DNA of 63,974 bases, counting the filler, from Basidiobolus ranarum (lineage: Eukaryota): NCBI GenBank assembly GCA_040143965.1. It is 54 parts of 54 records of this genome, joined end to end, with 100 filler letters (N's around TTAATTAATTAA, not from the genome) between each part and the next. Parts side by side here need not be neighbours in the genome. Positions count along the whole stretch, not along the records: positions 33,305 to 34,390 come from JASJQH010006502.1; 53 more parts are not named here. The stretch is one strand, 5' to 3'. The notes beneath the pieces were generated by a model. That model had not been told where the DNA came from and did not search any database. It saw nothing but the letters and a program-made list of their open reading frames with translations. How positions within the stretch are numbered: the stretch's first letter is position 1; each line of letters starts with the position of its first letter. Positions 11,463-62,921 of this stretch are shown piece after piece. The translations under genes were made by a program, and so were the position numbers.

Positions 11463-12632
11463 CCCTAACAAAAATAAAATTGATTTGATGTCGATCTCAT
11501 TCACCCTCCAAAATAGCAAAACCGTCAGAGAACCATCACAATATTGCTGGCTTGCATTCTGCCAGGGATTTTGATGGTGTGTCGGTGTAGTTGTTTTAGA
11601 TGTAAGCAGCAACTATAACTGCAATATCCCAAGGGTTTTGTGAGGTGTCCAAAGGGTGCAATAACCACGGTTGAATAACTCTAGGATGTACTGCAATATG
11701 CATCTGTCTCTTGCCTCTTGGGTCTTTGTGAAAGGGAATCAAGCCTCTAGAAATGTCTAAGGACTGATAAACCACAATGCAATGTCCAGCTTTCTGTTGA
11801 ATAATATGCTGGNNNNNNNNNNNNNNNNNNNNNNNNNNNNNNNNNNNNNNNNNNNNTTAATTAATTAANNNNNNNNNNNNNNNNNNNNNNNNNNNNNNNN
11901 NNNNNNNNNNNNTTACAGTGACAGTTACGGGTACGGGTACGGAAAGGGTACAAGTATGGATATGAATATGGTCACGGTCATGGTCATGGTATCGGAACTC
12001 CGGATATGTATGAATGCGAGATTGTGAGTCGTCGATCTGATGAGTATGATAGTACCTTAGGTTGTATTTAACTGGTAGAGGACTCTGGTGTTGTCTGCAG
12101 CCTTCAATCAATTTTCACAAACTTTTTTTTGGTCAGTCAATTGCATTCAAGTGACTATATTTCACCTCTCACTCATCGTGATTATCGGATAAAAGAAATA
12201 TAGAGTCATCATCAATTTAATTCGAAAGCTGAACCACGTTGTCAACGCTCACTCATTCAATCAACAATAGATATATAACTGCTCCTCATGACCCCATTAA
12301 TTATCAAACCATTACAAGATGTTCAATTGGTTCGTCTCGGATCATGAAATAGAGATCACTGCTAACCCAATATGTCCGTTAGTTGCACCTACTATTAATA
12401 TTTGTTTCCTGATTTGGAGAAAGGTCAATGCACGGCGTTTAATAGATATTTTAAAGTTATATATTGAATTGTGTAATATATATTAGCAATGTATATTGTG
12501 TATTGGTTAAAGGAATTTCAACATTTGCTGCACCGCTTTGCATTACCTAAACTATGGATAAACATGTCGAGATGTACTGATCTCTGACCCAGTAGAACAA
12601 ATATGGCTACAAATTTTATCAATCATAGGCAC

Positions 12633-13001
12633 TCACAAGTTACTGCGAGGCCTGCATTCATTCTCAAAGTATTCTTTTACAACTTTGCGGATGTCTAATG
12701 CACACCCGTACGAAAGAGTATAACCAGAGCCTCCATGACCGTAGTTATGAAATATTTTAGGGTTCTTATCATCTTGACCTACACGTGGCTCATCGCGGAA
12801 TGGTCGAATTCCGACGCGGTAGTAATAATCAGCAAATTCAGCCTTGGCTAAGTCTGGATATAGATTGACACATCCAACCTTCATTTTTTCTAGGTACTGA
12901 TGCTCTTTTTCATTCCACTCAAGTGTTTCTTGACCCATTTGCGCATAACCACCAAGAATAAGAATATCATCGTTTCTTGGTACGATGAACTCGAATCTTC
13001 C
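12633..13001 (-). CDS. D-amino-acid oxidase family FAD oxidoreductase, C-terminal part
   Basis: FIVPRNDDILILGG, VGIRPFR and the signature HNYGHGGSGYTLSYGCA. C-terminal -SNL resembles a PTS1 signal. CpGs are retained. Confidence 0.9.
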   Translation of the reverse strand, partial: GRFEFIVPRNDDILILGGYAQMGQETLEWNEKEHQYLEKMKVGCVNLYPDLAKAEFADYYYRVGIRPFRDEPRVGQDDKNPKIFHNYGHGGSGYTLSYGCALDIRKVVKEYFENECRPRSNL

Positions 13002-13102
13002 TNNNNNNNNNNNNNNNNNNNNNNNNNNNNNNNNNNNNNNNNNNNNTTAATTAATTAANNNNNNNNNNNNNNNNNNNNNNNNNNNNNNNNNNNNNNNNNN
13101 NN

Positions 13103-14292: not shown

Positions 14293-14493
14293 AATTTCAA
14301 ACTCATCCAAATTGCCCCAAAAATAGCTCATTATACTCCCACAGATGCTCTGACACAACCCCAGTGTTGGTTTTCTGTATTTCAACTAAAAAGTAAAAAT
14401 GCTTTATTTCTGGACAATAAACAATTATCTCACAATGCTATTCAAAGCTTCACTTTTCTAAAGTTCCTCCAAACAGCCCATATTTTCCCAACA
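14293..14493 (+). repeat. Copia LTR family F, 3' part (ends CCCAACA)
   Basis: Matches 55178..55379. Confidence 0.75.
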
Positions 14494-14502
14494 GATAGAT
14501 CT

Positions 14503-15382
14503 CCCAAACAAAAATAAAATTCATTTTATCTGGATCCAATCTACCCTTCTGGATTGCAAAATCATCAGGGAACCATCATAACATTGGTGGCTTGCATTCT
14601 GCCATGGATTTTGATGGTGAGACAGTAGCCTGATGGTATTTAAATATGGTAAAATTTTGATCCCCATTTTTGGCATGCATTATTTAATTTCCGGTAATTT
14701 TTGCAAAAACTGATTTTTGAATGGCAAATAACTGGGTTTACTGCTGTAGGAACTTGAATTTATATGTATGACTTTATTTAAATGTTTTAGGCTTTATATT
14801 CCGGCCATAATGAAATCAAAAAATACATGAAACATGTTGTGTTTAGTCTTTATATATGCATATACTTGACTGATTGGACATAACTCTACAACATCAATAT
14901 GCTATACCAGTGGACTAACAGTGGAAAAATTGCTAAACATCTGAAATTTTGAATTGCACTGACACTTGGCAAATAGCTGACTATTGTTACCATTCACAAT
15001 GAGAATAAGCTCTTGGAGTTTGGCAAATTTCTGTCAAGAGTTCAGCCAAATTATCCCTACTTGCAGTAAACAAATGTCCTGCCAGAAGTAGATTTGTCAT
15101 TGTTTGAATAGATTACCCCATGGCCAAAACAATGATACCATGTATCTTGATCTATGTTACTAAGAAGTCTGTAACATTTGGCAAATGGTAGATGTTTGTT
15201 ACCATTTGCAATGAGAATAAGCTCTTGGATTTTGGCAAATTTCCATAAAGAATTCAGCCAATATATCCCCAACTAGCAGTCAACAAATGTCCTGCCACAA
15301 GTAGATGTGTCATTGCTTGAATAGATTACCCCATGGCTAAAACAATAATATTGTGTATCTTGATCTATCTCACCAAGAAGTC
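14503..15382 (-). mobile_element. CACTA element right arm with an internal partial duplication
   Basis: TIR CCCAAACAAAAAT at 14503. The GIYWLNSL...QELILI segment is present twice (about 14960..15170 and 15170..15382). Confidence 0.75.
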
Positions 15383-19052: not shown

Positions 19053-19258
19053 CCTTACCCAGCTTCAGACAAGTTTATCAATAAGTACCATTTATCCAAG
19101 CAAGAATTCATAGTGGATACCTGCACATCTGTAAAATCATAAGGCACATGCTGCTTTGCACCACCCACACCTTCATTCAACTGTACACACAAAATTTTGG
19201 AAGTGATGGTTTCCTGTACCAAAGTAGGTTGTGAATGAGGAAGAATCTGTTTTGACAT
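19053..19258 (-). mobile_element. Divergent accessory ORF of the Harbinger-like element (N-terminus)
   Basis: MSKQILPHSQPTL... is conserved at 32119..32288 at a similar position upstream of the DDE ORF. Confidence 0.6.
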
Positions 19259-19615
19259 GATACGTCACTACCATATATATCTATGATGTTAGACTTTATT
19301 GTTTTCAATCAGAATTAGGGATCTTTTTATATTATTGGTTAAAATGTCAAAGTTAGTTTCCTATATTGTGAACAAGCATAATGCATTCTGCTTTGAGCCG
19401 TTTTGATATGTATGCTAAATAAATTGATTTGGATCAAACTATGATCAACTGTGCTGATGCAGTTTATTATATAATTTACATGCAATTACATATAATTGAA
19501 ATAATTAGGTTAATAAACACAAACAGAAATTTTATTACACATAATGTAGGGAATTTTACCATGATTATTGAAATTCTTATATAAATAACTTGCTTGCGCC
19601 AGATCAATCAGTATT

Positions 19616-20141
19616 GTGCAAGCTAGATGCAAGAATAATATCATGCTCTCCATTGACTCTAAATGGTCATTCCTTATTAATCCAAAAGTAACTACTGGCT
19701 TTCCTATCACCACCCTAGAAGCTATATTTGAGAAATACTGTCACTCATATACTCCAATACCTGCCAGAAAGCAGCTAGTCAGTTTGTTTCGTTACTACAA
19801 CAACTATTGTCCAATCAGACTTCAGTGCACTATTAATGGTGGAAAAAGTGGGAGAAGCTTCCATACTATGCTTCAAGTAAGTGAGAATATCTAGCTTCAG
19901 TGACAAATGATGTCGAAGGTGCCTGGGACAAAAGATTTAGAGACTCTAATTTCCTTCCATTTCCTGGAGTATTTCCCAATAGAGTTCATATCAGAAGTAT
20001 TCTTGACACGTTTCTAGTCAGAATTAACAGGCCCAAAAGCAACCAAAAGCTATTCTATTCCGGCAAGTACAAAGCCCACTGTGTAAAGTTCCAGGCTTTG
20101 ACAGATTTGGAAGTAAACATCATTTGGTTTAGTGGGCCACA
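19616..20141 (+). mobile_element. PIF/Harbinger/ISL2EU DDE (DDE_Tnp_4-type) transposase remnant
   Basis: SILDTF-VRINRPKSNQKLFYSGKYKAHCVKFQALTDLEVNIIWFSGP. Confidence 0.85.
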
Positions 20142-21430: not shown

Positions 21431-21608
21431 TAAACTACCATCATGTCCAAATGGTGGTTTGGCTTTTGGCAGTGATCTGAAAAACCTGAAGTCATGCACT
21501 GTTTGCACACAATTGGGAATTACTGAGTCATGTAATTATTTTCATATTTGGCTTATATACTGTTGATTCCTCATCTGAAAAGTTTTGATGAAATCACCCA
21601 AATATAGA
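21431..21608 (+). mobile_element. CACTA transposase N-terminal remnant
   Basis: Matches 28560..28740 (DLKNLKSCTVCTQL...YILLIPHLK). Confidence 0.7.
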
Positions 21609-22366
21609 CCCTAATAAAAATAAAATTTATTTGATCTGGATTGGATCCACCCTCCAAAATAGCAAAACCATCAGAGAGCTGTCACAATATTGGTGGCTTG
21701 CATTCTGCCAGGGATTTTGCTGGTGTAACAATGATTTCTTGATGGTATTTTGATGGTATTCATATATGTTAAAATATTGATCCTCAACTTTGCTATGAGT
21801 CATTCAATATCCAGCAATCTTTGCAAAAAAAATTTTTGATTGGTAAAATACTGGGTTTACTGCTGTAGGAATTCAAATTAATATGCATGCCTTTATTTAG
21901 ATATTTTAGGCTTTGTATTCCAGCAATAACAAGAATCAAAAAATACAAGAGTCTTGTTGTGTTTAGTCTCTACATATGCAAATACTTGACTGATCAGACA
22001 TAACTCAAAAACATCAATATGCTTTACCAGCAAACTAGTGGTGGAAAAATTGCTAAACATCTGAAATCTGGAATAGCACTGACACTTGGCAAATAGCGGA
22101 ATCATTGTACCATTCACAATGAGAATAAGCTCCTGGATTTTGGTAAATTGCCATAAAGAATTCAGCCAATATATCCCTGGCTCGCAGTCAACAAATGTTC
22201 TGCCACAAATAGATGTGTCATTGCTTGAATAGATTACCCCATGGCTAAAATGATAATAATGTGTATCTCCATCCATCTCACCAAGAAGTATGTCTTGCAG
22301 CTTTCCTAAAAATACCATCAGATTATCACAGAAGCAAATTAATCCAATTATAAAGATACTTACTCT
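21609..22366 (-). mobile_element. CACTA right arm with terminus C; LTR family G begins at 22367
   Basis: TIR at 21609 and ORF 21893..22318. TGTTGAAATTAGG at 22367 is shared with 47676 and 48443. Confidence 0.75.
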
Positions 22367-22619
22367 TGTTGAAATTAGGTAAATAGCAACACATTATTTA
22401 GTAGTTAGTTTATTCATATTCTGATTATTTAGTACTCATTTCTGTCATTCAAAAACGTGTGTTTATTGCTCTAATTGATAGAAATATCAATTGGATCACT
22501 TTTACCAATTTTCACTATTNNNNNNNNNNNNNNNNNNNNNNNNNNNNNNNNNNNNNNNNNNNNTTAATTAATTAANNNNNNNNNNNNNNNNNNNNNNNNN
22601 NNNNNNNNNNNNNNNNNNN

Positions 22620-23808: not shown

Positions 23809-24896
23809 AAAAGAGCAAAACCATCAGAGAACTGTCACAATATTGGTGGCTTGCATTCTACCAGGGATTTTGATGGTGTCACAGCAGTTTCTTGACAGTA
23901 TTTTTATGGTATTCATACATGTCAACACATTGATCCTCAAATTTGGCATGCATTAGTCAATATCTGGGAATTTTTGTAAAAATATAATTTTCAAATGGTA
24001 AATTACTGGGTTTACTGCTGTGGGAATTCAAATTAATATGCAAGCCTTTATTTAGATATTTTAGGCGTTGTATTCCAGCCATAATCAGAATCAAAAAATT
24101 CAAGAATCTTTTTGTGTTCAGTCTCTACATATGCACATACTTGACTGATTAGACATAACTCAACAATATCAATATGCTTTACCAGCAAACTAATGGTGGA
24201 AAAATTGCTGAATATCTGAAATATTGAATAGAACTGACACTTGCAAAGAGCTGCCTCTTGTTACCATTCACAATCAGAATAAGCTCCTGGATTTTGGCAA
24301 ATTTCTGTAAAGAATTCAGCCAATATATCCCTAACTTGCAGTCAACAAATGTCCTGCCACAAGTAGATTAGTCATTGCTGGAAGAGTTTACCCCTAGGCT
24401 AAAACAATGATACAGGGTATCTTGATCTATCTCATCAAGAAGTCTGTCTTGCAGCTGTCCTCAAAATACCATCAGATTATCACACAAGCAAATTAGTCTG
24501 ATTATAGAGGTACTTACTCTGTGTCCATGGATTGGGCTTTGTTGCTGTTATTGTGCTCAAACAATCCAAAAACCCACAAGCACATTGAAAAGAGCCCTTT
24601 GTGGGCAGGTTAATATACTCTGGAGTCTCCTTTACCCAATGCATTATATCCATCACTGATTTTGCTGATACATTGTTTATCAGATTAGCATATGGAAAAA
24701 CTGACGATTTCACACAGAGCATCATTTCACCACAGGTGTGCTCCATTGGGAACTCCCAGAATGTACAGCAAGGGCCTATAATCTCTAAGCATTGTAAAGA
24801 TGTAGCAGGGAATGTATTAAATACTGGCAGAGATTCAGTCTATCTTCTTTAAACCTGTAATAAAGTTTTTCATATCCAATTACAAAATCTTTGCAC
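23809..24896 (-). mobile_element. CACTA/EnSpm transposase C-terminal region plus right arm
   Basis: Minus strand reads EDRLNLCQYLIHSLLHL / IGPCCTFWEFPMEHTCGEM, matching the HxLLH...GP..W.FPMER.CG motif of Tnp2 transposases. It continues into the GIYWLNSL repeat. Confidence 0.85.
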
Positions 24897-32118: not shown

Positions 32119-33204
32119 CATATATCCAAGCAAGCATTCATAGTGAATACCAGGGCATCTGTAAAATCATTAGGCATGTACTGCTTTGCATCACCTACAC
32201 CTTCATTTAACTGCACGTGAAAGATTTTGGAAGTGGTGGATTCCTGTTCCAAAGTAGGTTGTGAATCAGGAAGAATCTGTTTTGACATGATTTGTAACTA
32301 TGTTGTATATCTATGATGTTAGACTTTATTGGTTTCAATCAGAATTGGGGATCTTGCTATAGTATTGATCAAAATGTCAAAGTTAATTTCCTATAGAGTG
32401 ATCAAGCATAATGCATGCTGCATTGAGCTGTTTCAATATATATGCAAAACAAATTGATTCAGATCAAACTAAGATTAACTTTGCTGATGCAGTATATTAT
32501 ATAACTTCCATGCAATTACGCATAATTGAAATAATTAGGATAATAAATACAAACTGATGTCTTATTACACAGAGTGTAGGGAATTTGACCACAATAATTG
32601 AAATTCTTACATATATATGGCACACAAGCTGAATCAATCAGTATTGTGCTGGCTCTATACAAGACTAGTATCATGCTCTCCATCTACTTAAAATAATCAC
32701 TCTTCAAAAGCAACTACTGGCTTGCCTATCACAACCCTGGAAGCAATATTTCAGAAATACTGTGGCTCATATACTCCAATACCTACCAGAGAACAGCTAG
32801 TCAATTTGTTTTGTTACCACAAAAACTATTGTCCAATCAGATTTCAGTGCACCATTAAAAATAGTAAAAGTGGGAGAAGCTTCCATGCCAGGCTACACCT
32901 AAGTGAGAATTATCCTGCTTCAGTAATGATTGATGTTCCAGATGCCTGGGACAAAAGATTCAGAAACTCTAATTTCCTTCCACTTCCTGGAGTATTTCCC
33001 AATAAAATTCTTATCAGAAGTATTCTTGACACATTTCCTGTGAGAATTAACAGGCCCAAAAGCAACCAAGAGCTATTCTATTCTGGCAAAAACAAATCTC
33101 ACTGTGTAAAGTTCCAGGCTTTGACAGATTTGGAAGGAAACATCATTTGGTTTAGTGGGCCACATGCAGGGAGACACAATAACAAAGGGCTTTGAGTTGA
33201 GAGG
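32119..33204 (+). mobile_element. Second copy of the Harbinger-like element (divergent ORF plus DDE transposase 32722..33195)
   Basis: SILDTFPVRINRPKSNQELFYSGKNKSHCVKFQALTDLEGNIIWFSGPHAGRHNN. Confidence 0.87.
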
Positions 33205-33514
33205 NNNNNNNNNNNNNNNNNNNNNNNNNNNNNNNNNNNNNNNNNNNNTTAATTAATTAANNNNNNNNNNNNNNNNNNNNNNNNNNNNNNNNNNNNNNNN
33301 NNNNCAGACAACTTTGAGGACTTGCTGCTAGATGTTGACCTTGGTTATTCCAGTACTAATGGTAGTATATCAGAAGTTGAAGAAGAAGACAACGGTTTTG
33401 TTATGGGCTCTTTGTTATTGGCAAACAGTAGTCCACTCATAATACTTACTGTAAAGCAAGCAGCTTTGATTATTGAGGAGCGGAGAGTTCAATCCAATCT
33501 TAGCAACCAGGTGT

Positions 33515-34215
33515 TTAGTCCTTCAGAAACAAAATACCAATACAATTATTGTTATTGGCACAGATGGCTCTTGTAACAGTGCACATAAACTAAGTCAATT
33601 AAGTATTCAAACCATTGGTGTCCCTGGAACAATTGATAACAATATCACGTTCACTGATGTTACAATTGGATTTGATACAGCAGTAAGCATTGTGTTAGAT
33701 GTGATTAATAAATTGCAAGATACAATGTGTTCACACAAATGCTCTTCTGTTGTTGAAGTCATGGGTAGACACTGTGGAGACATTGCTTTGTATGCAGGAT
33801 TAGCAAGTGGTGTGGAAGCCATTCTTGTGCCCAAGGTGCCATATGGTTTATATGCGATTTGTAAATGTATGGAGCATAATATTGCCATAGGCAAACTTCA
33901 TAGCATTTTGGTTGTTGCAGAGGGTGTAGGCAACAGTCATGATATTGCCAAAGAAATTGCGGTACACTATAATATTGATCCACATGTTACAATCTTATGA
34001 CATATCCAGCGTGGTGGTGTACCAACACACAATGATTGTATTTTAGCAAGTTGCCTTGGAGATGATGCAATCTGAAAATTGCTTGAAGGAGAATCAGGCA
34101 TGGCTTGTGGTGTAATCAAAGGGGAACTGGTGACAACAGATATTGAGAAAGTCATCAATACAAAGAGAGAATTTAACATGGACTTATACAATTGGACTTA
34201 CATTTATCACAGTAA
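33515..34215 (+). pseudogene. pfkA: Bacterial-type ATP-dependent 6-phosphofructokinase pseudogene (5'-truncated)
   Basis: VIGTDGS, GVPGTIDNNI, TIGFDTAV, VVEVMGRHCGDIAL, ILVVAEG, VTIL*HIQRGG and a C-terminal LSQ*. Stops at 33998 and 34073 and a 1-nt deletion near the end. Confidence 0.92.
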
Positions 34216-34219
34216 CATC

Positions 34220-34255
34220 AAAAGCTGCCTGAGGAACTTGGGAAGCCTTTTTTTT
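34220..34255 (+). terminator. Decayed bacterial Rho-independent terminator after pfkA
   Basis: AAAAGCTGCCTGAG-GAA-CTTGGGAAGCC-T8, an imperfect hairpin plus T-tract 4 nt after the stop codon. Confidence 0.7.
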
Positions 34256-34599
34256 GTATAGACTGTTTTTACCTGGCATATTGGTTTTCTTACAATTCTA
34301 ACACAGTTGACTGGCAACTGCTGCATGCCCCAGACCTGGTACAAGTGGAAAACACTTGACAAACATATCACTTATAATCCTTCAGTATTTNNNNNNNNNN
34401 NNNNNNNNNNNNNNNNNNNNNNNNNNNNNNNNNNTTAATTAATTAANNNNNNNNNNNNNNNNNNNNNNNNNNNNNNNNNNNNNNNNNNNNCTTTTTGTAT
34501 CAGTTCAAAGCATGGATATGATGACCTGCCCAGCAAGCTCTTTAAGTGAGTCGTCACATATTTTTTCTAATAATCGATATTTCTCAAGTGCTACTACAT

Positions 34600-35473
34600 C
34601 TCTTGTCATGGCCTGTAAAGCAACTTTGTAGTTTTTACTTATGATTGCATACAGATCTTTACAGTGTTCTTCCTGCAATTCCCTTGTTGTGATAATACTA
34701 TCCAAATTTTCTATGGAGGATTGTTCAATAGAGGGCAAAGTAGCCATTTTGGAAGTTGATGGTCTTGATGGTGTTTCAGTTGAACTTTGCTCAGCTATTG
34801 ATTTACTATGTATTTGGGGGATTACAATCTCTTCACTTGCGCTACTGCTGGAAAGGAACATGTCTGGTAAACTGATTAATGCTTCATCATTACTTGAGTT
34901 AGTCTCCAGCATGTTAATGCCTTCCAAAGTTGATAGTGAATTGCTAGACTGCACATCAATAAAGTCCTCAGTTCTTGCTAGTTTTTTTCCTTTTGTGCCA
35001 GCAGGCTTTGGCTTGGAAGCCAATTTTGACTTAGATTTTGAATGCTTTTTGAATAGCATTGAAATTTTCAGATGGTAAGCTTGGTGTAATGAAATTGCTC
35101 AGAAACAGCTTATAATAAACCAAAATTGCCATTCATTACCAGAAATATCTTGTACATCCCCTGATGACTCATCTGTGACACCATCTCAGAATCAGCTGAT
35201 GATATTGATGAGCTATACCTAAAATACCACCCTTACATAGGAGATGTTCTTTTTTCCACAATATCCTTCTCATGCCACATCACACATGTTTGATGCAGCC
35301 CTGCTATTATTGTCACAAATTCTTATGCTATGAAAGCCAGAGTCTTCATAGAAACAATAATCACAAGTATGGGCACTGTACAAAGCCACCAGCTGAACAA
35401 AGCCTGGTGCAAAACAACAGTAATACGTGCACTAAATCAACTTTAGTTTTGCCTATTGAGTCCACTGACTGTA
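34600..35473 (-). mobile_element. Family A repeat copy (ORF start MLFKKHSKSKS at 35059)
   Basis: Homologous to the other family A copies. Confidence 0.75.
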
Positions 35474-35676
35474 GTTTGCCTCAAAGCTTTGGTAACACAG
35501 ACAAAAGTCAAGATACCATGGAGTTACCACAGGTTTATGAACATAATGATGTATGTAAAAATGCAACTTTGGTCAANNNNNNNNNNNNNNNNNNNNNNNN
35601 NNNNNNNNNNNNNNNNNNNNTTAATTAATTAANNNNNNNNNNNNNNNNNNNNNNNNNNNNNNNNNNNNNNNNNNNN

Positions 35677-39132: not shown

Positions 39133-39569
39133 NNNNNNNNNNNNNNNNNNNNNNNNNNNNNNNNNNNNNNNNNNNNTTAATTAATTAANNNNNNNNNNNN
39201 NNNNNNNNNNNNNNNNNNNNNNNNNNNNNNNNTCCAATTTTCAGCTAAGTGATATTTGACTAAGTAATGTTAACTAACTTATATGTGATATATGAAATAG
39301 TTAGGTGTATAAAGATAGAGATAACAAATATGATAAAGACAATGAACTTCAACACTTCCATGGAAGGTCTTGGCAGAAATACACTATGTGTGGGATGTCA
39401 TGATTAGTTAGGTTTCATGCAATGTTACAAAGAATATGACTTCCATAGAAGGTAATCTGGATGAACTAACACAAGATTGCCAAGAAGGGATGGCTCAGCA
39501 GATATGATATCATAATCTAATATAGAAGAGTTCTATTTGCTGTGGATTAGTATGCCAAGATCAGAATCA

Positions 39570-40225
39570 TGACAGTATCTCTATAATTTGGACTAATTTG
39601 TTTGTGTGATTATCTAAGGGTATTCCTAGGAAAGCTGCAAGACAGACTTCTTGGTGAGATAGACCAAGATATGCAATACTATTATTTTAGCCATGTGGTA
39701 TTATGTTCAAGCAATGACACATCTACTTGTGGCAGGAAATTTGTTGACTACAAGTTGGGGATATATTGGCTGAATTGTTTACAGAAATTTGCCAAAATCC
39801 ATGAGCTTTTTCTCATTGTGAATGGTAACAAGAGTCACCTATTCACCAAGTGTCAGTGCTATTCAAAATTTCAGATGTTTAGCAATGTTTCCACCATTAG
39901 TTTGCTGGTAAAGCATATTGAAGTTGTTGAGTTATGTCTGATCAGTCATTTGTGTTTATATGTAGAGACTAAACCCAACAAGATTCTTGTATTTTTAGAT
40001 TCCCATTATGGCTGGAATACAAAGCCAAAAATATCTAAATAAAGGCATACATATTATTTCAAATTCTTACAGCAGTAAACCTTGTAATTTTCCATTTGCA
40101 AGTTAGATTTTTGTGAAAATTGCCAGAAATTAAATAGCTCGTGCCAAATATGAGGATCAATATTTTAACATGTATTAATTCCATCAAGATACCATCAAAA
40201 AGGGGCCATCACACTGCTACAGTCT
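39570..40225 (+). mobile_element. CACTA right-arm copy
   Basis: ORF 39602..40042 is homologous to 21893..22318. Confidence 0.75.
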
Positions 40226-40417
40226 TTGGGAGCCTGGTTGCAGTGGTTGGGAGAATTAGAGGACTTGGCGTTTTTCACTTATTTATTTCATGATGAGAAA
40301 GTTGACATTTATAGTTTNNNNNNNNNNNNNNNNNNNNNNNNNNNNNNNNNNNNNNNNNNNNTTAATTAATTAANNNNNNNNNNNNNNNNNNNNNNNNNNN
40401 NNNNNNNNNNNNNNNNN

Positions 40418-41602: not shown

Positions 41603-42612
41603 GGTTGTTGTGTAGTCTAATAGTCTGACACATATTCTGCTCTGCTAGATTGTCATGGTGACATTCATATGAATGGTGTGGGATTGATTGAAATCCCATA
41701 TGAGAGTGGATGGAGGGTGCAGCATATTGCTGTAGCTCAAGTACAGCATTCTGAAGGTCTTGTATCATTGGAGAAAGACTCTCTAACTGTTGACTAGTTG
41801 CTTCCAAGCACTGCATTGATTGCATTATTGGGGTGTCATTGCTTGTCATAGCCTGAATAGCAACTTTGTAGTTTTTATTTATGATTGCATACAAATCATT
41901 ATGGTGTTCTGCATTTGATTCTCTTGTTGGAATAATTCCATCCAAATTTTCTATAGAGCATTGATCAATAGTGGGCAAATTAGCCATTTTGGAAGTTGAT
42001 GGTCTAGATGGTGTTTTGTTTGAACTTTGCTCAACTATTGATTTACTATGTAATTGGGGATTACAGTCTCTTCACTTGCAGTATCACTGGAAAGGAACGC
42101 CTCTGGTAAATGGTTTAATGCTTCATCATTACTTGAGTTAGTTTCTAGCGTGTTAATGCCTTCCAAAGTGGAAAGTGGATTTCTAAACTGCTCATCAATG
42201 AAGTCCTCTGTTCTTGCTGGGTTTTTTCCTTTTGAGCCAGCAGCCTTTTGCTTTGAAACTGATTTTGATTTTGAATGCTTTTTGAATGGCATTGACATTT
42301 TCAGATGTTAAACTTGGTGTAGCATAATTACTTAGAAACAGCTTATACTAAAGGAAAATTGCCATCCATTGCTGGAAATATCTTGTAAATCACCAGATGA
42401 ATAATCTCTGATACCATCTCAGACTCAGCAGATCATATTAATGGGCTATATCTACAAAACCACCATTATGTAGGAGGTGTTCTTTTTTCTACAATATTCT
42501 TGTAATACTGTGACACATATGATTAAAGATGCCTTGCTATTATTGTCCAAAAATCTTGAGCTACAAATGTTGAGGCCTCATGGAAAAAAATCATCAGCAC
42601 AGTCACTGTGTA
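41603..42612 (-). mobile_element. Family A repeat copy
   Basis: MPFKKHSKSKS...; frameshifted. Confidence 0.75.
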
Positions 42613-42786
42613 AAAGTTTATAATAAAATTGAACCCGAACGAAGGCCTAAAATGGATACAGAATCAAAACATTGATAAATATATAGNNNNNNNNNNNNNN
42701 NNNNNNNNNNNNNNNNNNNNNNNNNNNNNNTTAATTAATTAANNNNNNNNNNNNNNNNNNNNNNNNNNNNNNNNNNNNNNNNNNNN

Positions 42787-43970: not shown

Positions 43971-45054
43971 TAAGTGTTTAGTGCCTAATGGGAAGCTCTG
44001 GCTCCAGCTGATCCCCTTTAGCAATATAATCTTGGCCTTACTGCTAATACCAAGTTTGATGTTAGACTGATTATTTTGTGAATTGGTATCAGTGATCATG
44101 TTGAAATTTGACTGGGCTGTTGATAGTCAAATTGTCAAGTTTGGTTTTGTATTTGGATAGTAGTAATGTATACGCCTGATAGAGTACACTCCATTCATTT
44201 GACAAAATCCACAGCAAGATAGAGCATTGTGCCCCCAAAACCTCCAAATTTACTGATGGCTGGAGTGTCACCAATTCATGTTTAAGTTTATTGTTTTTAG
44301 CATATTTGTTATCTCTATCTTTATACACCTGACTATTTCATATTTCCCATATAAGTTAGTTAAGATTACTTAGTCAAATGTTACTAAACAGCAAATCAGA
44401 ACATTTATTATATATATATCCCTAATGAAAACAAAATCAATTTGATCCGGATCAGATCCACATTCCAAAATAGCAAAACCGTCAGAAACCATCACAATAT
44501 TGCTGACTTGAATTCTGCCAGGGATTTTGATGGTGTGACGGCAGTTTCTTGATGGTATCTTAATGGTATTCATACATATTAAAATATTGATCCTCAAATT
44601 TGGCATGTGTTATTCAATATCCTGCAATTTTTGCAAAAATATAATTTTTGAATGGCAAATTACTGGGCTTACTGCTATAGGAATTCAAATTAATATGCAT
44701 GCCTTTATTTAGATATTTTAGGCTTTGTATTCCAGCCATCATGAGAATCAAAATATACAAGAATCTCATTGTATTTAGTCTCTACATATGCACATATTTG
44801 CCTGATTAGACATAACTCAACAACATCAATATGCTTTACCAGCAAACTAATGGTGGAAAAATTGATAAACATCTGAAATTTTGAATAGCACTGACACTTG
44901 GCAAATAGCTGACTCTTGTTACTGTTCACAATGAGAATAAGCTCTTGGATTTTGGCAAATTTCCATAAAGAATTCAGCCAATATATCCCCAACTTGCAGT
45001 CAACAAATGTCCTGCCACAAGTAGCTGTGTCAGTGCTTGAATAGAATACCCCAT
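43971..45054 (-). mobile_element. Nested cluster: CACTA transposase (to 44278), LTR F (44279..44419), CACTA terminus C (44420 onward)
   Basis: Each segment matches its family copies elsewhere in the window. Confidence 0.75.
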
Positions 45055-48442: not shown

Positions 48443-49889
48443 TGTTGAAATTAGGTAAATAGCAACTCATTATTTAGGAGTTAGTTTATTCATAATCTGA
48501 TTATTTAGCACTCAATTCTGTTATTCAAAAACGTGTGTTTATTGCTCTAATAGATAGAAATATCAATTAGATCACTTTTACCAATTTTCACTATTTTCTC
48601 AAAACTNNNNNNNNNNNNNNNNNNNNNNNNNNNNNNNNNNNNNNNNNNNNTTAATTAATTAANNNNNNNNNNNNNNNNNNNNNNNNNNNNNNNNNNNNNN
48701 NNNNNNATTATATCAGCCTTCGCAGCCCATTGAACAAGAACAACCTTCTTCGCCAGAAGAGCCGGAAGAGCCCGAATCCTCCGGCTCAAGGTGCGGCAGG
48801 TGTAACTAAAGATGTGATTAGCAACACATTATGTAATTAGTATATATTCATTAATATCACTCATTAAAAAATAAATCATGTAATGTTTAACAACAGTGTT
48901 AACTTCGTCTAAGCAATGATTAGACTGGAAAAGCCATTGTATTAAAGATAAGATTCTTAAAAGATTAATGCTAGTCATCTCCTAATCATCTTATATACGT
49001 ACTAAAATGACACTAGTCTAATCCAAATGCGATAGCATAGGACACCAATCAGATAACGTAATTGAGCATTCAATAAATGCTTCAACGAATAACAATAATG
49101 AAATATTTCTTTTACTTTTTATCGAGATTATTTATATCTACAAAGCCTAATCTACCGTCAGACCGTACAATGCAATCCCATAATCTTAAACATCAAGCAA
49201 ATTCACCGTACATATATATCTAATAACGAGGTTCACGTTGACAATGAAGATAGTCTCTACGTGAAGTTGTGCCATTCCTGTGTGCATATTTCGAGTAATA
49301 TACTTGAATCAACGTAGCACGAGTCATTTTGACAGTCGGTATTGACAATTTTGTTATTAACTTTAATTAGTCATCCGCCTTACTAATTGTATCAGTTTTA
49401 CTTGCTATCAGTTCTTTAATCCGAAAAAGCAGCAATAGCCAGTTTTTGTTTCCTATACCGAAAACCATGAAAATTTGAATGATGCGAGTTTCAACAAGCA
49501 AGAAAGTTTTGGCGTAAAGTATTAAACAAGCCTGATCTTTTTGGTGGGGTTATAGTGGAGAGTTACACCTCGACAAGGAGAAGTTGTTGAATCCAAGTCC
49601 AGCTACAGAATAATCTTTCGCAGTTAAAGCAGTAATTGTTAAACTGAAAAATATAGTGTATTCGATAGGATATAATTATATATCTCAATTGATTTGGAAA
49701 TTGTTTTTTGATATTAAGAGAATTACTAGCTGTCAGAATGTGCAAACCGTCCTCGCCTGGTTGTTGGAATAATCAACCGGCAAGATCATNNNNNNNNNNN
49801 NNNNNNNNNNNNNNNNNNNNNNNNNNNNNNNNNTTAATTAATTAANNNNNNNNNNNNNNNNNNNNNNNNNNNNNNNNNNNNNNNNNNNN

Positions 49890-52030: not shown

Positions 52031-52716
52031 ACTTTATTTAGCTTAAATACTAATCTAAACAAAGTGACAATCAAGACATCAATCTTTTGAGATATTGTGT
52101 CAATACTGAATCATATCCATACTTAACCTGATGACCAATGTAATCAAGCTCAGAGNNNNNNNNNNNNNNNNNNNNNNNNNNNNNNNNNNNNNNNNNNNNT
52201 TAATTAATTAANNNNNNNNNNNNNNNNNNNNNNNNNNNNNNNNNNNNNNNNNNNNTTCTGGGAATCATTAGTGATTTAAAGTTACCATGAATCAGAATCC
52301 TTTTCACAACTGGGCGGCTAGTGTAAAAGCATATAGATATTATTATCTTCGTCTAAATGGCATATATATTAGTGCTGAACTTATTATCAAAAGTAGTATT
52401 GTGAAAGCAAACGAGTCAAGTAGAAAAGAATAACGATTAATCAAATATTGTCTATGGATAATAGTTTGTATAAAGCGGGCAACTCTAACACTTTACTATC
52501 AAACTACTCTCAGATAACTTGGTGAACTAAGCCACGTGAAGATCAACGCTACCGTTTCAAAAATCATTTAACCTAATCCGCATTCATTTGCCAATTCTAA
52601 ATATACCTAATATTCCAAATCATCAAGTCCATTCCAAGGTTAGTTTCACATTTTTAATCCTTTGACCAAGTCTTAGACTCTGAAAATGGTACTCTTAAAG
52701 CCCAAGATAGTACGAG

Positions 52717-53292
52717 ATGCCAACAGTCGAATATCAACGGCTGGGATTAGAGGAGGATCTATTGAACAACTCTTCTACTCTAGATGATTCTTTTACTTTA
52801 GCTACTGAGCGACAAGGTGAATATCGTTTGATGAATTATAAAATTAACTCTAAATATCTGCAACGCTCACTAAGAAAACATTAGCTAACTTAACAATGAA
52901 TTTTCTTATTTGAAAAGACGGAAATAATCAGCGAATTGCATTATCTTTAATTGATCCGTCAAACGATGAGTCGAATTTACCTCACTTTACAGTAAGCCTT
53001 CAGAATCCCACGTGAAAGGTCAAATTTTGGAAGAAACTAAAGCTTCTCATTATAAATTTATAGTTTCGTGCTGTGTTCGTAGGACTTATCATAGGATCAG
53101 CACTTTGCTTTAGTAACATGTATTTTGGATTACAAACGGGATGGATCTCTATGATGTCTTTACAATCATCTCTTCTTGGTTTTGTACTTTTCAGACTATT
53201 TCGAAATTGGCAACAGATTCAATTTGGAGTTGCTGAAAATGTCATCTTACAGACGACTGCTGTCGCTACCGCCACCATGCCTTTAGCTGGAG
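52717..53292 (+). CDS. OPT-family oligopeptide transporter (YSL/Ygl114w-like), first three exons 52717..52816, 52918..52991, 53064..53292
   Basis: GT-AG introns keep the frame: MPTVEYQRL...PHFT|FRAVFVGLIIGSALCFSNMYFGLQTGWISMMSLQSSLLGF...ENVILQTTAVATATMPLAGG. Confidence 0.9.
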
Positions 53293-53438
53293 GTATTTTT
53301 GTCTTGAATTTAGTTTGTTTACTATCTGACACCTAATGNNNNNNNNNNNNNNNNNNNNNNNNNNNNNNNNNNNNNNNNNNNNTTAATTAATTAANNNNNN
53401 NNNNNNNNNNNNNNNNNNNNNNNNNNNNNNNNNNNNNN

Positions 53439-54521
53439 ACCCGGGGCGACGGCCGCGGTCCCCCCCACTCCCCCCCCCGGCCCCCCCCCCCCCCCCCCCC
53501 CCACCTGCGCCTCAATTCCCCTCTCCAACCTGGGGGCGCCTTTTAAGCGCCCTCCAAGCAGGCCCCCCCCATCAATAAACCCCCCCCCACCCTACATAAA
53601 GTGGGGGGGGGGGGGGCCCCCCCGCCGGGGGCCCCCCCCCCCCCCGGGGGGGGGGGGGGGGGGGGGCTTCGGGCAGGGGGGAGAGGGGGGTGGCTCCCCC
53701 GTTTGGCCCTGCCCCGGCCGGGTTTTCCGAAAGGCTCCGTCCTCGCCTTTCAGTATCGTAGCCAACCACTTAAATGCTACGTCTATTTGGATGGGGGGCC
53801 AGTCTGTTTGCCAAATTCCGGGAGGGGCCTCCCGACCCTTTGGGATGAATATTAATTCCGGCTTCGCACTCTGGGGGCCCCTTTTTCTCCTTTATCTGTC
53901 CCCTCCCTCTGAAGGATGGCCCCTCCCTTCCGGTACGGGGGGAAGCACAAGGGGGGGGAAGCCCCCCCCCTTCCAGGAGGGGGGGGGGCTAGGAATAGGG
54001 GGGCGGGGGGCGGGGGAGGCGAGCGAGCGAGCCGGTTACCGACCGACCGCCGAAGGTCGCGAACCCCCCCCCCATACCCCCCCGGAAGGGGGTGGGGAGG
54101 GGATCTCAGGGTCAAACCGGGGCAGTTACCGAACGCCCCCACCCCTCCCCCCCCCCCTCAACCGGCCCCCTACCGGCCCCCCTCCCTCCACCGATCCCTT
54201 TGGGCTCGCCCCCCGGCTTCGCACCCGAAACTCCCCCTCGCTAACCCCCCCCGGGTGGGGGGGGGAGCGGTTAAATTCAGGGTCCCGGCAGGGGGGTGGG
54301 GAGGGGGGAGGTAGCGAAGCCGGGGAATGCACCCCCATCGCATTTGCAAACAGATGCCAGCCCCCCCCCCCCCCCCGGGGGGGGGGGGCCATTATTGAGA
54401 ACCCCCGGCCAAGGGGGGGGGGTGGGAATCTGCCTATGCAACAGATTCGGCCGTCTCCTCTTCAGGTGATCGCGCTCGATAAGTTAAAACAATAGGTCCA
54501 ACCATCGCTAATAATAAGATA
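53439..54521. other. Low-quality G/C homopolymer-rich sequence, probable sequencing artefact
   Basis: Long poly-C and poly-G runs, with composition unlike every other contig. Confidence 0.75.
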
Positions 54522-56694: not shown

Positions 56695-57074
56695 GCAGAA
56701 ATGTGATTGGAATCATGTCTCTGTGGACTCAAAATTAAAATTCCTATTTCTCAATTCACACTTTCTATCCTCATTAGTCTTATTGTATATTTTCTTGCAG
56801 ACTTCTGAAGGCATGAAGATATAGTATTCTCTCCAAAGCAGAGTCAAAAGTTGCTTCCACTTTTGTCTAATGCCCCCTTCCCCAGCNNNNNNNNNNNNNN
56901 NNNNNNNNNNNNNNNNNNNNNNNNNNNNNNTTAATTAATTAANNNNNNNNNNNNNNNNNNNNNNNNNNNNNNNNNNNNNNNNNNNNTATGGATGGATGTT
57001 CCTTCCTTTACTCTCTCTCTCTGATTTCCCTAACCCATGCTCTGATCCTTTTTTTCACTCTACCCCTGGGATAT

Positions 57075-57299
57075 TCATCTATAAATTGCAGGATTATATC
57101 TAAATTTTTGGGGGCCGGTACCAATAATTTTGGCGAAGACACATTGGGTTGGTTTGAGGCCAAGGTACCAATGTTGGAAGGCGTTTAGGTTATCAAACTT
57201 GGAATACATTCGGTTTCCACTGTGTTGAATAATTATTCCATGTCCGTCTATGGGGGGTAATTTTTTAACAAATTTTTTTCCGTAAATGGTTTGGGACAT
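57075..57299 (-). CDS. Possible PrimPol/AEP-like primase N-terminus (low-quality or degenerate)
   Basis: RMYSKF..LNAFQHWYLGLKPTQCVFAKIIGTGPQKFRY resembles the F..WY..L.P..R.F.EII...PQK.rFDiD lead-in to AEP motif I. The DxD itself is not intact. Confidence 0.35.
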   Translation of the reverse strand: MSQTIYGKKFVKKLPPIDGHGIIIQHSGNRMYSKFDNLNAFQHWYLGLKPTQCVFAKIIGTGPQKFRYNPAIYR

Positions 57300-57469
57300 A
57301 TTGGGGGTGTAATGTAGTGGTTTGCATGAGACAAGTATACTTGGTATGAATTTTATTTTTTTGGAATAGATTCAAAAGGTTTGAAGGGACGTATGTTAAA
57401 TAAATGGATATAGTTGGGTTTGGGTGATGATTGTTGAACCGGGGTTAAAATATGGTTGGGTGGGGTTTA

Positions 57470-58068
57470 ATTTGGAACTTAATTCGAATTTAAATTAGAT
57501 ATTGGTTAGAGAAATTTTTAAAAAATAATTCCGAACTTAATTTAAATCTAATTCCGATCTTGGTTTGAAATTTTTTAAAAATAATTCTGAACTTAATTTA
57601 AATCTTAATTTGTATCTTGGTTTGAAAAATTTTAAAAATAATTTCGCAAAATATTATTTTAAAACTTGAATTAGAACTTGAAGAAGATCTTGTTTAGAAT
57701 TTAATTCCGAACTTAATTTAAATCTTAATTTGGATCTTGGTTTGAAACTTTTTAAAAATTATTTCGAACTTAATTTAAATTTAATTCGGATCTTGGTTTG
57801 AAATTTTTTAAAAATAATTCCGAACTTAATTTAAATCTTAATTCGTATTTTGGTTTGAAATTTTTTAAAAATAATTCCGAACTTAATTTAAAACTCAAAT
57901 TAGAACTTGAAGAAGATTTTAATTTAGAATTTAATTCCGAACTTAATTTAAATCTAATTCGGATCTTGGTTTGAAATTTTTTAAAAATAATTCGACAAAA
58001 AATTATTTTCATACTTGAATTAGAACTTGAAGAAGATCTTGTTTAGAATTTAATTCCGAACTTAATTT
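57470..58068. repeat. AT-rich composite tandem array (unit about 57-59 bp, GAACTTAATTTAAATCTTAATTCGGATCTTGGTTTGAAA..., plus higher-order blocks)
   Basis: Repeated units read directly. A TTAGAACTTGAAGAAGAT block recurs three times. Confidence 0.85.
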
Positions 58069-58168: not shown

Positions 58169-58815
58169 ATTATTTTAGCCATGGGGTAATTTATTCCAGC
58201 AATGACACATCAACTTGTGGCAGGGCATTTCTTGACTGCAAGTTGGGAATATATTGGCTGAATTCTTTACAGAAAGTTGCCAAAATCCAAGAGCTTATTC
58301 TCCTTGTGAATAGTAACAAGAGTAAGCTATTTGCCAAGTGTCAGTGCTATTCAAAATTTCAGATGTTTAGCAATTTTTCCACCATTAGTTTGCTGGTAAA
58401 GCATATTGATGTTGTTGGGTTATGTCTCATCAGTCAAGTATATGCATATGAAGAGACTAAGCATAACAAGATTCTTGTATTTTTTGATTCTCATCATGGC
58501 TGGAATACAAAGCCTAAAATATTTAAATAAAGGCATGCATATTGAATCAAATTCCTACAGCTGTAAACTCAGTGATTTGCCATTCAAAAATTATATTTTT
58601 GCAAGAATTGCTGGGTATTGAATAGCACATGCCAATTTGAGGATCAATATTTTAACATGTATAAATACCATCAAAATACCATCAAGAAACCACCATCACA
58701 CCATCAAAATCCCTGGCAGAATGCAAGCTACCAATATTGTGACGGTTCTCTGACAGTTTTGCTCTTATGGAGGGTGGATCCTATCCATATCAAATTGATT
58801 TTATTTTTGCTAAGG
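58169..58815 (+). mobile_element. CACTA right arm ending ATTTTTGCTAAGG, inserted upstream of a family I ORF
   Basis: GIYWLNSL ORF and a decayed TIR. Confidence 0.75.
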
Positions 58816-59350
58816 TTGCTCCAATGATGAGTGATTTAACATTTAGAAAACTGTGTGGAATCATGCCCAAAATCACCTGGATTTGAACCAATTGTGGAAA
58901 AGCCAAAAACCAGGCATTACTTGGAAGGTTCTTGACTTATTTCATGTGGCTTATCCTGGTTTTTGCAAGCAAGTGGCAATTGGGCTATTATAGGCCTATT
59001 CATGAAACATCTCAAAAATGTACACAATTATCAACTTGGAAAAGAAAAAAAAGCAGCTAAAGAAGTACTCAAGGAGCAGAAAGTTAGAAAATCCAGGGGA
59101 AAAGCAAAGGAGCCAGTGAGCTTAGGCTCTACACTGCCACTTACCAAATTCTTCACACCATTACAAAGATCTGCAATTCCAGAGTTGGATATAATGGCAA
59201 AAGAGCTTAATTTCACCATGGAACTGGGTATACCAGTTGGAAGAGTGCTANNNNNNNNNNNNNNNNNNNNNNNNNNNNNNNNNNNNNNNNNNNNTTAATT
59301 AATTAANNNNNNNNNNNNNNNNNNNNNNNNNNNNNNNNNNNNNNNNNNNN

Positions 59351-60262: not shown

Positions 60263-60335
60263 TGGTCTGGCCAGGAATTGAACCTGGGACCTCCTTCACT
60301 CTAGCAAGGTGCTCTAACCTCTGAGCTACCAGTCC
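60263..60335 (-). tRNA. tRNA-like element (pseudo-tRNA or SINE head) with AGA at the anticodon position
   Basis: GGACTGG TA GCTC AGAGGTTA GAGC A CCTTG CTAGAGT GAAGG AGGTC CCAGG TTCAATT CCTGG CCAGACC A folds as a cloverleaf with A and B boxes. It has stem mismatches and a short variable loop. Confidence 0.7.
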
Positions 60336-62793: not shown

Positions 62794-62921
62794 NNNNNNN
62801 NNNNNNNNNNNNNNNNNNNNNNNNNNNNNNNNNNNNNTTAATTAATTAANNNNNNNNNNNNNNNNNNNNNNNNNNNNNNNNNNNNNNNNNNNNATCATAA
62901 GTAAAGACAATAAACTTCAAC

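What the first reader, a model, noticed from the sequence alone, without database searches (positions are those of the whole stretch)
33515..34255. Fossil bacterial pfkA with its intrinsic terminator, mutated by the host's CpG-decay process
Seen: a single-domain prokaryotic-type PFK C-terminal region with no introns, ending ...LSQ* and followed 4 nt later by a hairpin plus T8. Established: fungal PFKs are tandem-duplicated proteins, and eukaryotes do not use intrinsic terminators. From memory the sequence resembles Bacillales/Paenibacillus PfkA (CGxIKGELVxTDIxKVxNTK, LRLSQ end). Expected Arg sites read as CpG-transition products: LQDT (LRDT), SHKCSS (SHERSS), DPHVT (RVT), DCILASCLG (DR..SRLG) and a TGA at 34073. 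The terminator stem CCTGAG/CTTGGG restores to CCCGAG/CTCGGG. Inference: this is DNA-level horizontal transfer of a bacterial chromosome piece that was methylated and eroded like the host's transposons. A contaminant would be intact and CpG-rich.
Basis: partly seen in the sequence, partly recalled or inferred. Interest (0 to 1): 0.85.

Follow-up and report, generated by a model that had tools for sequence, protein, structure and literature searches.

The report
Eroded bacterial pfkA relic in fungus
A dead, mutation-worn piece of a soil bacterium's sugar-metabolism gene, still carrying its bacterial stop signal, sits next to a repeat of a Basidiobolus-like fungus, showing that raw bacterial DNA entered the fungal genome and then decayed there.

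Summary
Window 33521-34215 is the 3' 72% (codons 91-321) of a single-domain bacterial pfkA. It is collinear with Paenibacillaceae PfkA and has no introns. It is broken by two in-frame TGA codons and a 1-nt deletion, and a hairpin plus T8 follows it.

It nests inside the Paenibacillaceae clade on a branch 8 times the median length.

Erosion is CpG-centred. Of 69 places where most relatives have CG, it keeps 2 and reads TG or CA at 48. Of 11 conserved Arg codons, 8 now read Gln, Cys, His or TGA. The host-like repeat contigs in the window show the same CpG loss with TpG and CpA excess.

New here:
- The window is a chain of 54 unlinked contigs of about 1.09 kb, so only 33305-34390 counts as context.
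- The 216 bases upstream are the end of a repeat found in Basidiobolus ranarum, and pfkA codon 91 starts where that repeat unit ends.

Best reading: bacterial chromosomal DNA integrated in a Basidiobolus-like nuclear genome, later cut by or abutting a host repeat, and decayed like host repeats.

Not shown: methylation itself, copy number, read-level linkage, and the origin of 34256-34390.

It is a new member of a known kind. Horizontal transfer into Basidiobolus is published.

The parts
33305..33520 (+). Terminal part of a host (Basidiobolus-type) repeat; open frame from 33307
   Evidence: phmmer against 1.84 billion representatives found 8 hits. Six are B. ranarum hypothetical proteins: E 1.6e-22 to 5.8e-4 and 60-83% identity. 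In tblastn, P0124 residues 25-96 equal window 33307-33522. P0124 residues 97-149 continue into a different window repeat family, so the repeat unit ends at about 33520. No PfkA signal in any frame.
33521..34191 (+). pfkA relic, codons 91-314, one frame, no introns or indels
   Evidence: 64-68% amino-acid and 61-67% nucleotide identity to 30 Paenibacillaceae genes
33998..34000 (+). In-frame TGA at an invariant Gly column (residue 250)
   Evidence: the first base is a G-to-T change at a conserved site
34073..34075 (+). In-frame TGA at a conserved Arg column (residue 275). Relatives have CGC (23 of 30) or CGT (5 of 30)
   Evidence: The C-to-T change at the CpG first base is shown at a conserved site; relatives' third base is C or T where the window has A.
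34190..34192 (+). Site of a 1-nt deletion in codon 314 (frameshift)
   Evidence: Frames compared with relatives' ..LYELAKRLSQ*
34192..34215 (+). Last seven codons (..HLSQ) and TAA stop in the shifted frame
   Evidence: RLSQ* ends all 30 Paenibacillaceae genes plus L034 and L035
34220..34255 (+). Relic intrinsic terminator: A4, stem GCT.CCTGAG / CTTGGG.AGC with loop GAA, then T8
   Evidence: Pattern scan hit at 34228-34242 with a T-rich tail. The fold is -9.9 kcal/mol, z -0.56, so it is weak as it stands. 24 of 30 relatives have a hairpin plus T run within 150 nt after the pfkA stop. Both G.T wobble pairs have their T in a TpG.
34256..34390 (.). Unassigned 135 bases to the contig end; CpG-free
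   Evidence: No match to the other window contigs or to 33 Paenibacillaceae loci. Two reading frames found nothing in 136 Paenibacillaceae genomes. Composition over 34216-34390 (175 bases, which includes the terminator): CpG 0, TpG o/e 1.49, CpA o/e 1.41.

Best explanation
A stretch of chromosomal DNA from a Paenibacillaceae bacterium, holding at least the 3' part of pfkA with its own Rho-independent terminator, became part of the nuclear genome of a Basidiobolus-like fungus. It was never under selection there, or lost it early. It sits in repeat-rich DNA, and pfkA codon 91 starts exactly at the end of a host repeat unit. Most simply, a host mobile element inserted into the bacterial insert and cut the gene. 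The insert then decayed by the process that shaped the host's own repeats: near-complete CpG to TpG/CpA transition, most likely deamination of 5-methylcytosine, on top of a general drift from G:C to A:T. This produced two stop codons and replaced most conserved Arg residues, and a 1-nt deletion added a frameshift. The relic has no function today. Shown: bacterial affinity, pseudogene state, CpG-centred spectrum, host-like composition, and junction with a Basidiobolus repeat on one contig. Inferred: methylation as the cause, the order of events (insert first, repeat later), single copy, and nuclear location.
For: (1) Identity.
- PF00365, E 3.4e-58.
- The best solved structures are 319-residue single-domain bacterial-type PFK chains.
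- The best named database hits are almost all Paenibacillus.
- The family-wide and phylum-wide searches favour Paenibacillaceae, as does the tree.

(2) Dead gene.
- Two TGA codons and one frameshift.
- 66 of 392 sites conserved in at least 90% of 30 relatives are changed. The most for any relative in leave-one-out is 21 of 376.
- 27 of 130 invariant residues are changed, including GGDGS to GTDGS and TIDND to TIDNN.

(3) Spectrum.
- G>A 23 and C>T 15 of the 66 changes.
- The 69 consensus CG places now read CG 2, TG 28, CA 20, TA 3. The 56 control GC places read GC 18, GT 14, AC 9. Fisher p is 9e-6 for retention and 0.002 for single transitions.
- Of 11 Arg columns, 3 read Gln, 3 Cys, 1 His, 1 TGA and 1 Leu, and 2 are kept.

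(4) Same signature as the host.
- 33 of 53 other contigs have CpG o/e below 0.2 (median 0.07), with TpG 1.39 and CpA 1.40.
- The pfk segment has 0.17, 1.61 and 1.93.
- In two host repeat families, 76 column pairs show both TG and CA, against 21-24 for control dinucleotides.

(5) Junction.
- Upstream 33307-33522 matches B. ranarum proteins.
- The B. ranarum copy P0124 switches to another repeat family at the same point.

(6) Bacterial 3' architecture is kept: hairpin plus T8, as in 24 of 30 relatives.

(7) Context. Tabima et al. 2020 (PMC7466969, passages read) report 2-5% of Basidiobolus gene models as bacterial transfer candidates, with Firmicutes among the three commonest sources.
Against: - Host linkage rests on one 1086-bp contig of a fragmented assembly. 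No reads could be laid and no genome is held, so an assembly chimera at 33520/33521 is not excluded.
- The downstream 135 bases are unassigned, so only one junction is seen.
- At strictly conserved sites the CpG excess is modest: 24 of 94 against 14 of 108 transitions, p 0.03. Many changes are non-CpG.
- The hairpin as it stands is no more stable than shuffles, z -0.56.
- The host is named only through 60-83% identity of a repeat to B. ranarum proteins. A copia query found nothing and the Atlas said only 'eukaryote'.
- 5mC in this fungus was not shown by any search or by any passage read.
Confidence: 0.78

Rival explanations
1. Decayed remnant of a once-working fungal xenolog. A Paenibacillaceae pfkA was acquired and used by the fungus for a time, or a working copy still exists elsewhere in the genome, and this contig is a later pseudogenised copy rather than DNA that was dead on arrival.
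For: Functional bacterial-derived genes are reported in Basidiobolus (PMC7466969, passages). The relic is collinear over 224 codons with no indels and has only one small deletion near the end, so the decay is by point mutation only.
Against: No fungal-labelled or closer (above 68%) PfkA appears among the 120 best of 7942 near-length hits or among the 73 shorter hits. The only closer row is the window's own product. No intron was gained. The bacterial terminator is still attached. The gene is cut at codon 91. Changes hit codon positions 1 and 2 freely: 58 of 380 conserved sites.
Confidence: 0.12
2. Pseudogene of an A+T-rich, genome-reduced bacterial associate related to Paenibacillaceae, joined to a fungal repeat by mis-assembly.
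For: Decaying symbiont genomes hold pseudogenes and drift to A+T. The contig is short, and no reads could be checked.
Against: CpG is depleted specifically (o/e 0.17) with TpG 1.63 and CpA 1.92, while GpC stays at 1.27. This is the signature of the host-like repeat contigs, not plain A+T drift. The repeat homology ends within 2 nt of where PfkA homology begins, which a random chimera would rarely give. No near-identical sequence turned up in the genome-contig scan, which holds one genome for each of 185,579 bacterial and archaeal species, or in the metagenome scan.
Confidence: 0.05
3. Ordinary bacterial contamination of the assembly.
For: Contamination of early-diverging fungal assemblies is common (Ciach et al. 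preprint 10.1101/2021.12.02.471044, passages). The window holds composition outliers such as 53439-54521, GC 0.69.
Against: Two stops, a frameshift and loss of invariant residues. GC is 0.375 against 0.44-0.61 and there are 4 CpG against 39-97 in relatives. A host repeat lies on the same contig.
Confidence: 0.02

Closest known systems
Paenibacillaceae ATP-dependent 6-phosphofructokinase PfkA (about 321 aa, PF00365, ends RLSQ)
   Same: Collinear over residues 91-321. Highest identity 64-68%. Same C-terminal motif, and a hairpin plus T-run terminator right after the stop, as in 24 of 30 relatives. Nests in that clade.
   Different: Lacks residues 1-90. Has two stops and a frameshift, and 27 of 130 invariant residues are changed. 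GC is 0.375 and CpG o/e 0.17. It lies on a contig with a fungal repeat. It is a relic, not a working member.
Bacteria-to-Basidiobolus horizontal gene transfer candidates (Tabima et al. 2020, PMC7466969; passages read)
   Same: Same recipient genus as far as the flank shows, and the same donor phylum class: Firmicutes rank among the top three sources.
   Different: Those are intact gene models with host-like GC (about 0.49). They were screened as proteins and required fungal neighbour genes. This one is non-coding debris in a 0.35-0.38 GC repeat setting that a protein-based screen would discard. The words pseudogene, Paenibacillus and phosphofructokinase occur 0 times in that text. Its supplementary tables were not readable here.
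Nuclear inserts of bacterial DNA that decay neutrally in animals, such as Wolbachia-derived inserts in insects and nematodes (recalled, not from a call)
   Same: DNA-level transfer of a chromosome piece with non-coding flanks, followed by pseudogenisation under the host's mutation pattern.
   Different: The donor here is a free-living soil or gut Bacillota rather than a germline endosymbiont, and the recipient is a fungus. Only 0.74 kb is seen.
Fungal/eukaryotic PFK (tandem-duplicated, about 750-990 aa)
   Same: Shares the PFK fold family. Weaker matches to human and yeast chains.
   Different: TIGR02478 (eukaryotic type) scores 126.5 bits against a cut-off of 708.4, versus 240.9 for the bacterial PRK03202 model. 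There is no second domain and no intron.

Membership tests
PFK family (Pfam PF00365) | Significant match to the PFK domain profile | tested here: met
   197.6 bits against a cut-off of 30.9, profile positions 85-274 of 277
Bacterial single-domain ATP-PFK (PfkA; NCBIfam PRK03202 / TIGR02482) | Whole-protein score above the curated cut-off; intact reading frame and catalytic motifs | tested here: not met
   240.9 bits against a cut-off of 253, and 220.9 against 371.35. Residues 1-90 are missing, there are two TGA codons and a frameshift, and GGDGS and TIDND are altered. It is derived from this family but is not a working member.
Paenibacillaceae PfkA clade | Nests in the clade; RLSQ C-terminus; highest identity to clade members | tested here: met
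   Clade of 33 rows with SH-aLRT 100 includes the window row. RLSQ is present in 32 of 32 clade rows and 0 of 26 others, and the window has HLSQ. Identity is 60-68% to the full-length family matches against at most 59% outside the family. The position inside the clade is unresolved because of the long branch.
Eukaryotic tandem PFK (TIGR02478) | Duplicated PFK domains; score above cut-off | tested here: not met
   126.5 bits against 708.4. One domain only, followed by a stop and a terminator.
Rho-independent (intrinsic) terminator | G+C-rich hairpin directly followed by a T run, downstream of a stop codon | tested here: inconclusive
   The pattern is present: 6 pairs, of which 2 are G.T, plus 3 outer pairs and T8. 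The energy is -9.9 kcal/mol, z -0.56 against shuffles. The position matches terminators in 24 of 30 relatives. Activity cannot be tested here.
Inter-kingdom DNA insert (bacterial relic in a eukaryotic nuclear genome) | Physical linkage to host sequence | tested here: inconclusive
   A host repeat and the relic share one 1086-bp contig, and the junction lies at the repeat's end. Reads and the whole genome were not available.
Inter-kingdom DNA insert (bacterial relic in a eukaryotic nuclear genome) | Carries the host's mutational signature rather than the donor's composition | tested here: met
   CpG o/e 0.17 with TpG and CpA excess, as in 33 of 53 other contigs.
Classical RIP (Neurospora-type, CpA to TpA in duplicated DNA), as the eroding process | Depletion of CpA and TpG with a gain of TpA | tested here: not met
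   CpA o/e 1.92 and TpG o/e 1.63 are enriched, not depleted. No second copy was seen.
5mC-deamination decay of methylated repeats | Cytosine methylation present at the locus or in the host's repeats | not testable with these tools
   Only the sequence footprint is seen. The passages read do not state 5mC levels for Basidiobolus.

The most novel reading that the evidence does not exclude
Basidiobolus-like fungi take up raw bacterial chromosomal DNA continually and indiscriminately. Most of it lands in silenced, repeat-rich DNA and rots there. This relic would be one visible member of a large hidden class of such fossils. The host's CpG-decay footprint would both authenticate them against contamination and date them. 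That would give the first neutral estimate of the rate of bacterial DNA influx into a fungal genome, the denominator behind the disputed counts of functional transfers.
Probability: 0.3. Interest if true: 0.75.

Novelty: new member of a known kind. Interest (0 to 1): 0.5.

Why it matters
Counts of bacterial genes in Basidiobolus are disputed. Tabima et al. reported 811 candidates. [quoted passage not shown]

A relic that is bacterial by descent but carries the fungus's own mutation footprint, and that abuts a fungal repeat, cannot be a contaminant of living bacteria. So it is clean evidence that DNA-level transfer happens in this lineage, non-coding bacterial signals included.

It also shows that protein-based transfer screens miss the failed transfers. 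A scan for CpG-eroded bacterial fragments could measure raw uptake and its timing.

Tried and rejected
- Own-genome search: no genome is held.
- PfkA residues 1-90 in 33305-33520: none in six frames with all filters off. A weak E=4 match in frame +2 shares a 12-mer with the true start and was judged chance.
- Flanks against the other 53 window contigs and 33 Paenibacillaceae loci by blastn and tblastx: nothing below E 0.01.
- Downstream 34256-34390 in two frames against 136 Paenibacillaceae genomes: 0 of 136 each. The tool notes that an empty answer shows nothing.
- Naming the host through a copia gag-pol query: 2662 candidates, none significant. Protein Atlas on a sugar-transporter fragment: eukaryote only.
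- Other eroded copies: the genome-contig scan returned only two intact Paenibacillus loci, and the metagenome scan had 102 pattern hits, none related. The shorter-protein search gave 73 hits. The four checked by sequence (P0134, P0137, P0138, P0141) are ordinary bacterial fragments with the conserved Arg residues intact.
- Consensus-based spectrum of host repeats: uninformative, because the consensus itself has almost no CpG left, 26 site-copies. It was replaced by the TG/CA mixed-column count.
- P0122 (851 aa, 14 repeats, 32% identity) as a relative of the flank: rejected as score inflation by an internal repeat.
- Earlier scan notes: four look-ups, all empty.
- Rfam on the whole window: one tRNA at 60263-60335 and nothing in the contig.

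Full report
**What the window is.** The 63,974 bases are not one stretch of chromosome. They are 54 contigs of 1092 down to 1081 bases, sorted by length and joined by 100-base linkers of N with a central TTAATTAATTAA. The finding lies on the contig 33305-34390 (1086 bases), and only that contig is valid physical context.

Most other contigs are A+T-rich (GC about 0.35) and almost free of CpG. Of the other 53, 33 have CpG o/e below 0.2 (median 0.07), with TpG 1.39 and CpA 1.40. They carry copia gag/pol, a retroviral-type aspartyl protease and a PIF/Harbinger DDE transposase, and many are 80-90% identical copies of one another.

- 33521-34191 reads in one frame as residues 91-314 of a 321-residue bacterial PfkA. 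There is not a single gap against Paenibacillus proteins (66-68% identity) or against a profile of 30 Paenibacillaceae PfkA (E 3.7e-110, positions 91-316).
- Pfam PF00365 scores 197.6 bits. The best solved structures are 319-residue single-domain bacterial-type chains. The eukaryotic tandem-PFK model scores only 126.5 bits against a cut-off of 708.4.
- The frame holds two TGA codons, at 33998 and 34073.
- One base is missing from codon 314 (34190-34191). In the shifted frame the last seven codons end ..HLSQ, with TAA at 34213-34215.
- Four bases later come A4, a stem GCT.CCTGAG / CTTGGG.AGC with loop GAA, and T8 at 34248-34255.

**Where it comes from.**
- Among 5.8 billion proteins, the named rows of the 120 best hits are almost all Paenibacillus, plus Cohnella and Marinicrinis, at 62-67% identity. 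The only closer row is the contig's own product.
- All 136 genomes of the Paenibacillaceae sample match. The full-length matches lie at 60-68% identity, and two cut-off matches were left out of that range.
- In an even sample of 151 genomes of the phylum, the next two reach 58-59% and the rest are at 50% or below.
- In a tree of 59 rows the window sequence lies inside the Paenibacillaceae-type clade (33 rows, SH-aLRT 100). Its end branch is 0.51 against a median of 0.063, and its place within the clade is unresolved (quick method, LG+G4).
- The C-terminal RLSQ is shared by all 32 rows of that clade and by none of the 26 others.
- By a crude criterion of my own, 24 of 30 relatives have a hairpin directly followed by a T run within 150 nt after the pfkA stop. 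The terminator is therefore part of the donor's architecture.

**It is a dead gene, worn in a particular way.**
- At the 392 sites conserved in at least 90% of 30 relatives, the window differs at 66. No relative differs at more than 21 of 376 in leave-one-out.
- 27 of 130 invariant residues are changed, including the GGDGS and TIDND motifs. That these motifs are catalytic is recalled.
- Of the 66 changes, 23 are G>A and 15 are C>T.
- Where at least half of the relatives have CG (69 places), the window has CG at 2, TG at 28, CA at 20 and TA at 3. Where they have GC (56 places), it keeps GC at 18 and has GT at 14 and AC at 9. Fisher p is 9e-6 for retention.
- Of 11 conserved Arg columns, 3 read Gln, 3 Cys, 1 His, 1 TGA and 1 Leu, and 2 are kept.
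- The segment has 4 CpG (o/e 0.17), TpG 1.63, CpA 1.92 and GC 0.375. Relatives have 39-97 CpG, o/e of at least 1.19 and GC 0.44-0.61.
- The CpG bias is weaker in one test. At strictly conserved sites, transitions hit 24 of 94 CpG-context G/C sites and 14 of 108 non-CpG sites (p 0.03). A clear non-CpG drift from G:C to A:T also exists.
- CpA and TpG are enriched, not depleted, so Neurospora-type RIP is not the process.

**The host shows the same footprint.** Besides the composition of 33 of 53 contigs, alignments of two repeat families contain 76 column pairs in which some copies read TG and others CA. The three control dinucleotides give 21-24. CpG has therefore decayed independently in repeat copies of this genome.

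**The junction and the host.**
- No frame of 33305-33520 matches PfkA residues 1-90.
- The open frame 33307-33519 instead finds 8 proteins among 1.84 billion representatives. Six are short hypothetical proteins of Basidiobolus ranarum, at 60-83% identity and E down to 1.6e-22. The other two were set aside as a repeat-inflated match and a weak one.
- One of the six, P0124, matches the contig with residues 25-96 (33307-33522). Its residues 97-149 match a different repeat family on other contigs of this window.
- Two others, both marked partial, end within a few residues of that point.
- So about 33520 is the natural end of a host repeat unit, and pfkA codon 91 starts at 33521.
- The neighbouring contig in the window, 34491-35576, ends 5 codons before the point at which this contig begins in the same repeat family. 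This is seen through P0123, P0125, P0127 and P0128, which bridge both. It fits a short-read assembler breaking at repeat edges around a unique insert.
- The simplest history is that a host element inserted into an already resident bacterial insert. Integration of bacterial DNA next to an element end is the alternative.
- The downstream 135 bases match nothing tried.

**Literature.**
- Tabima et al. 2020 (PMC7466969, passages read) report 2-5% of Basidiobolus gene models as bacterial transfer candidates, with Firmicutes among the top three sources. The words Paenibacillus, pseudogene and phosphofructokinase do not occur in the text.
- Ciach et al. [quoted passage not shown] The same three words are absent there too.
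- A search for pseudogenised bacteria-to-fungus transfers with CpG decay listed no such case among its 12 best of 172 papers. Only the listing was seen.
- Supplementary tables could not be read.

**Verdict.** Still open are read-level linkage, copy number, direct evidence of methylation, the missing 5' half and the identity of the last 135 bases. It is a new member of a known kind, a bacterial DNA relic in a eukaryotic genome, in a fungus already noted for bacterial gene uptake. Its value is as contamination-proof evidence and as a template for counting failed transfers.

Noticed in passing
whole window; linkers e.g. 33205-33304 and 34391-34490: The window is 54 contigs (1092 to 1081 bases, sorted by length) joined by 100-base N runs with a central TTAATTAATTAA six-frame stop. 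Any inference from adjacency across linkers is invalid.
   Followed up: yes
53439-54521: One contig has GC 0.69 and CpG o/e 0.50, with long Pro/Gly-rich open frames on the + strand. It is a composition outlier of unknown origin, either a contaminant or a simple-sequence region.
   Followed up: no
2385-3476; 11913-13002; 48707-49789; 52256-53338; 56987-58068: Five contigs keep CpG o/e of 0.8-1.1, unlike the repeat contigs. Two carry ordinary genes: Cupin_1 (E 4.6e-21) and the DAO FAD oxidoreductase family (E 8.6e-12). They are presumably unmethylated host genes, organelle DNA or contaminants. 56987-58068 has GC 0.28 and an internal repeat.
   Followed up: partly
3577-4667, 34491-35576, 41603-42686, 62894-63974 (family B); 14293-15382, 21431-22519, 23809-24896, 39233-40317, 43971-45054, 58169-59250 (family A): Two abundant host repeat families at 80-90% identity. 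B. ranarum protein models P0123-P0128 are stitched from pieces of these repeats, so those gene models are probably repeat-derived mis-annotations.
   Followed up: partly
32119-33204 and 19053-20141: Two copies (84.6% identical) of a PIF/Harbinger-type DDE transposase relic (DDE_Tnp_4, E 2.5e-9). In 32692-33195 an Asn sits where I recall the family's final Asp.
   Followed up: partly
60263-60335 (-): The single Rfam hit in the window is a tRNA (55.9 bits).
   Followed up: no
protein P0051: A Paenibacillus-type PfkA (65% identity to the relic, seen on 30 contigs) is labelled 'Chlamydia abortus diphosphate--fructose-6-phosphate 1-phosphotransferase' by its source. It is probably a contaminated or mislabelled record.
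   Followed up: no
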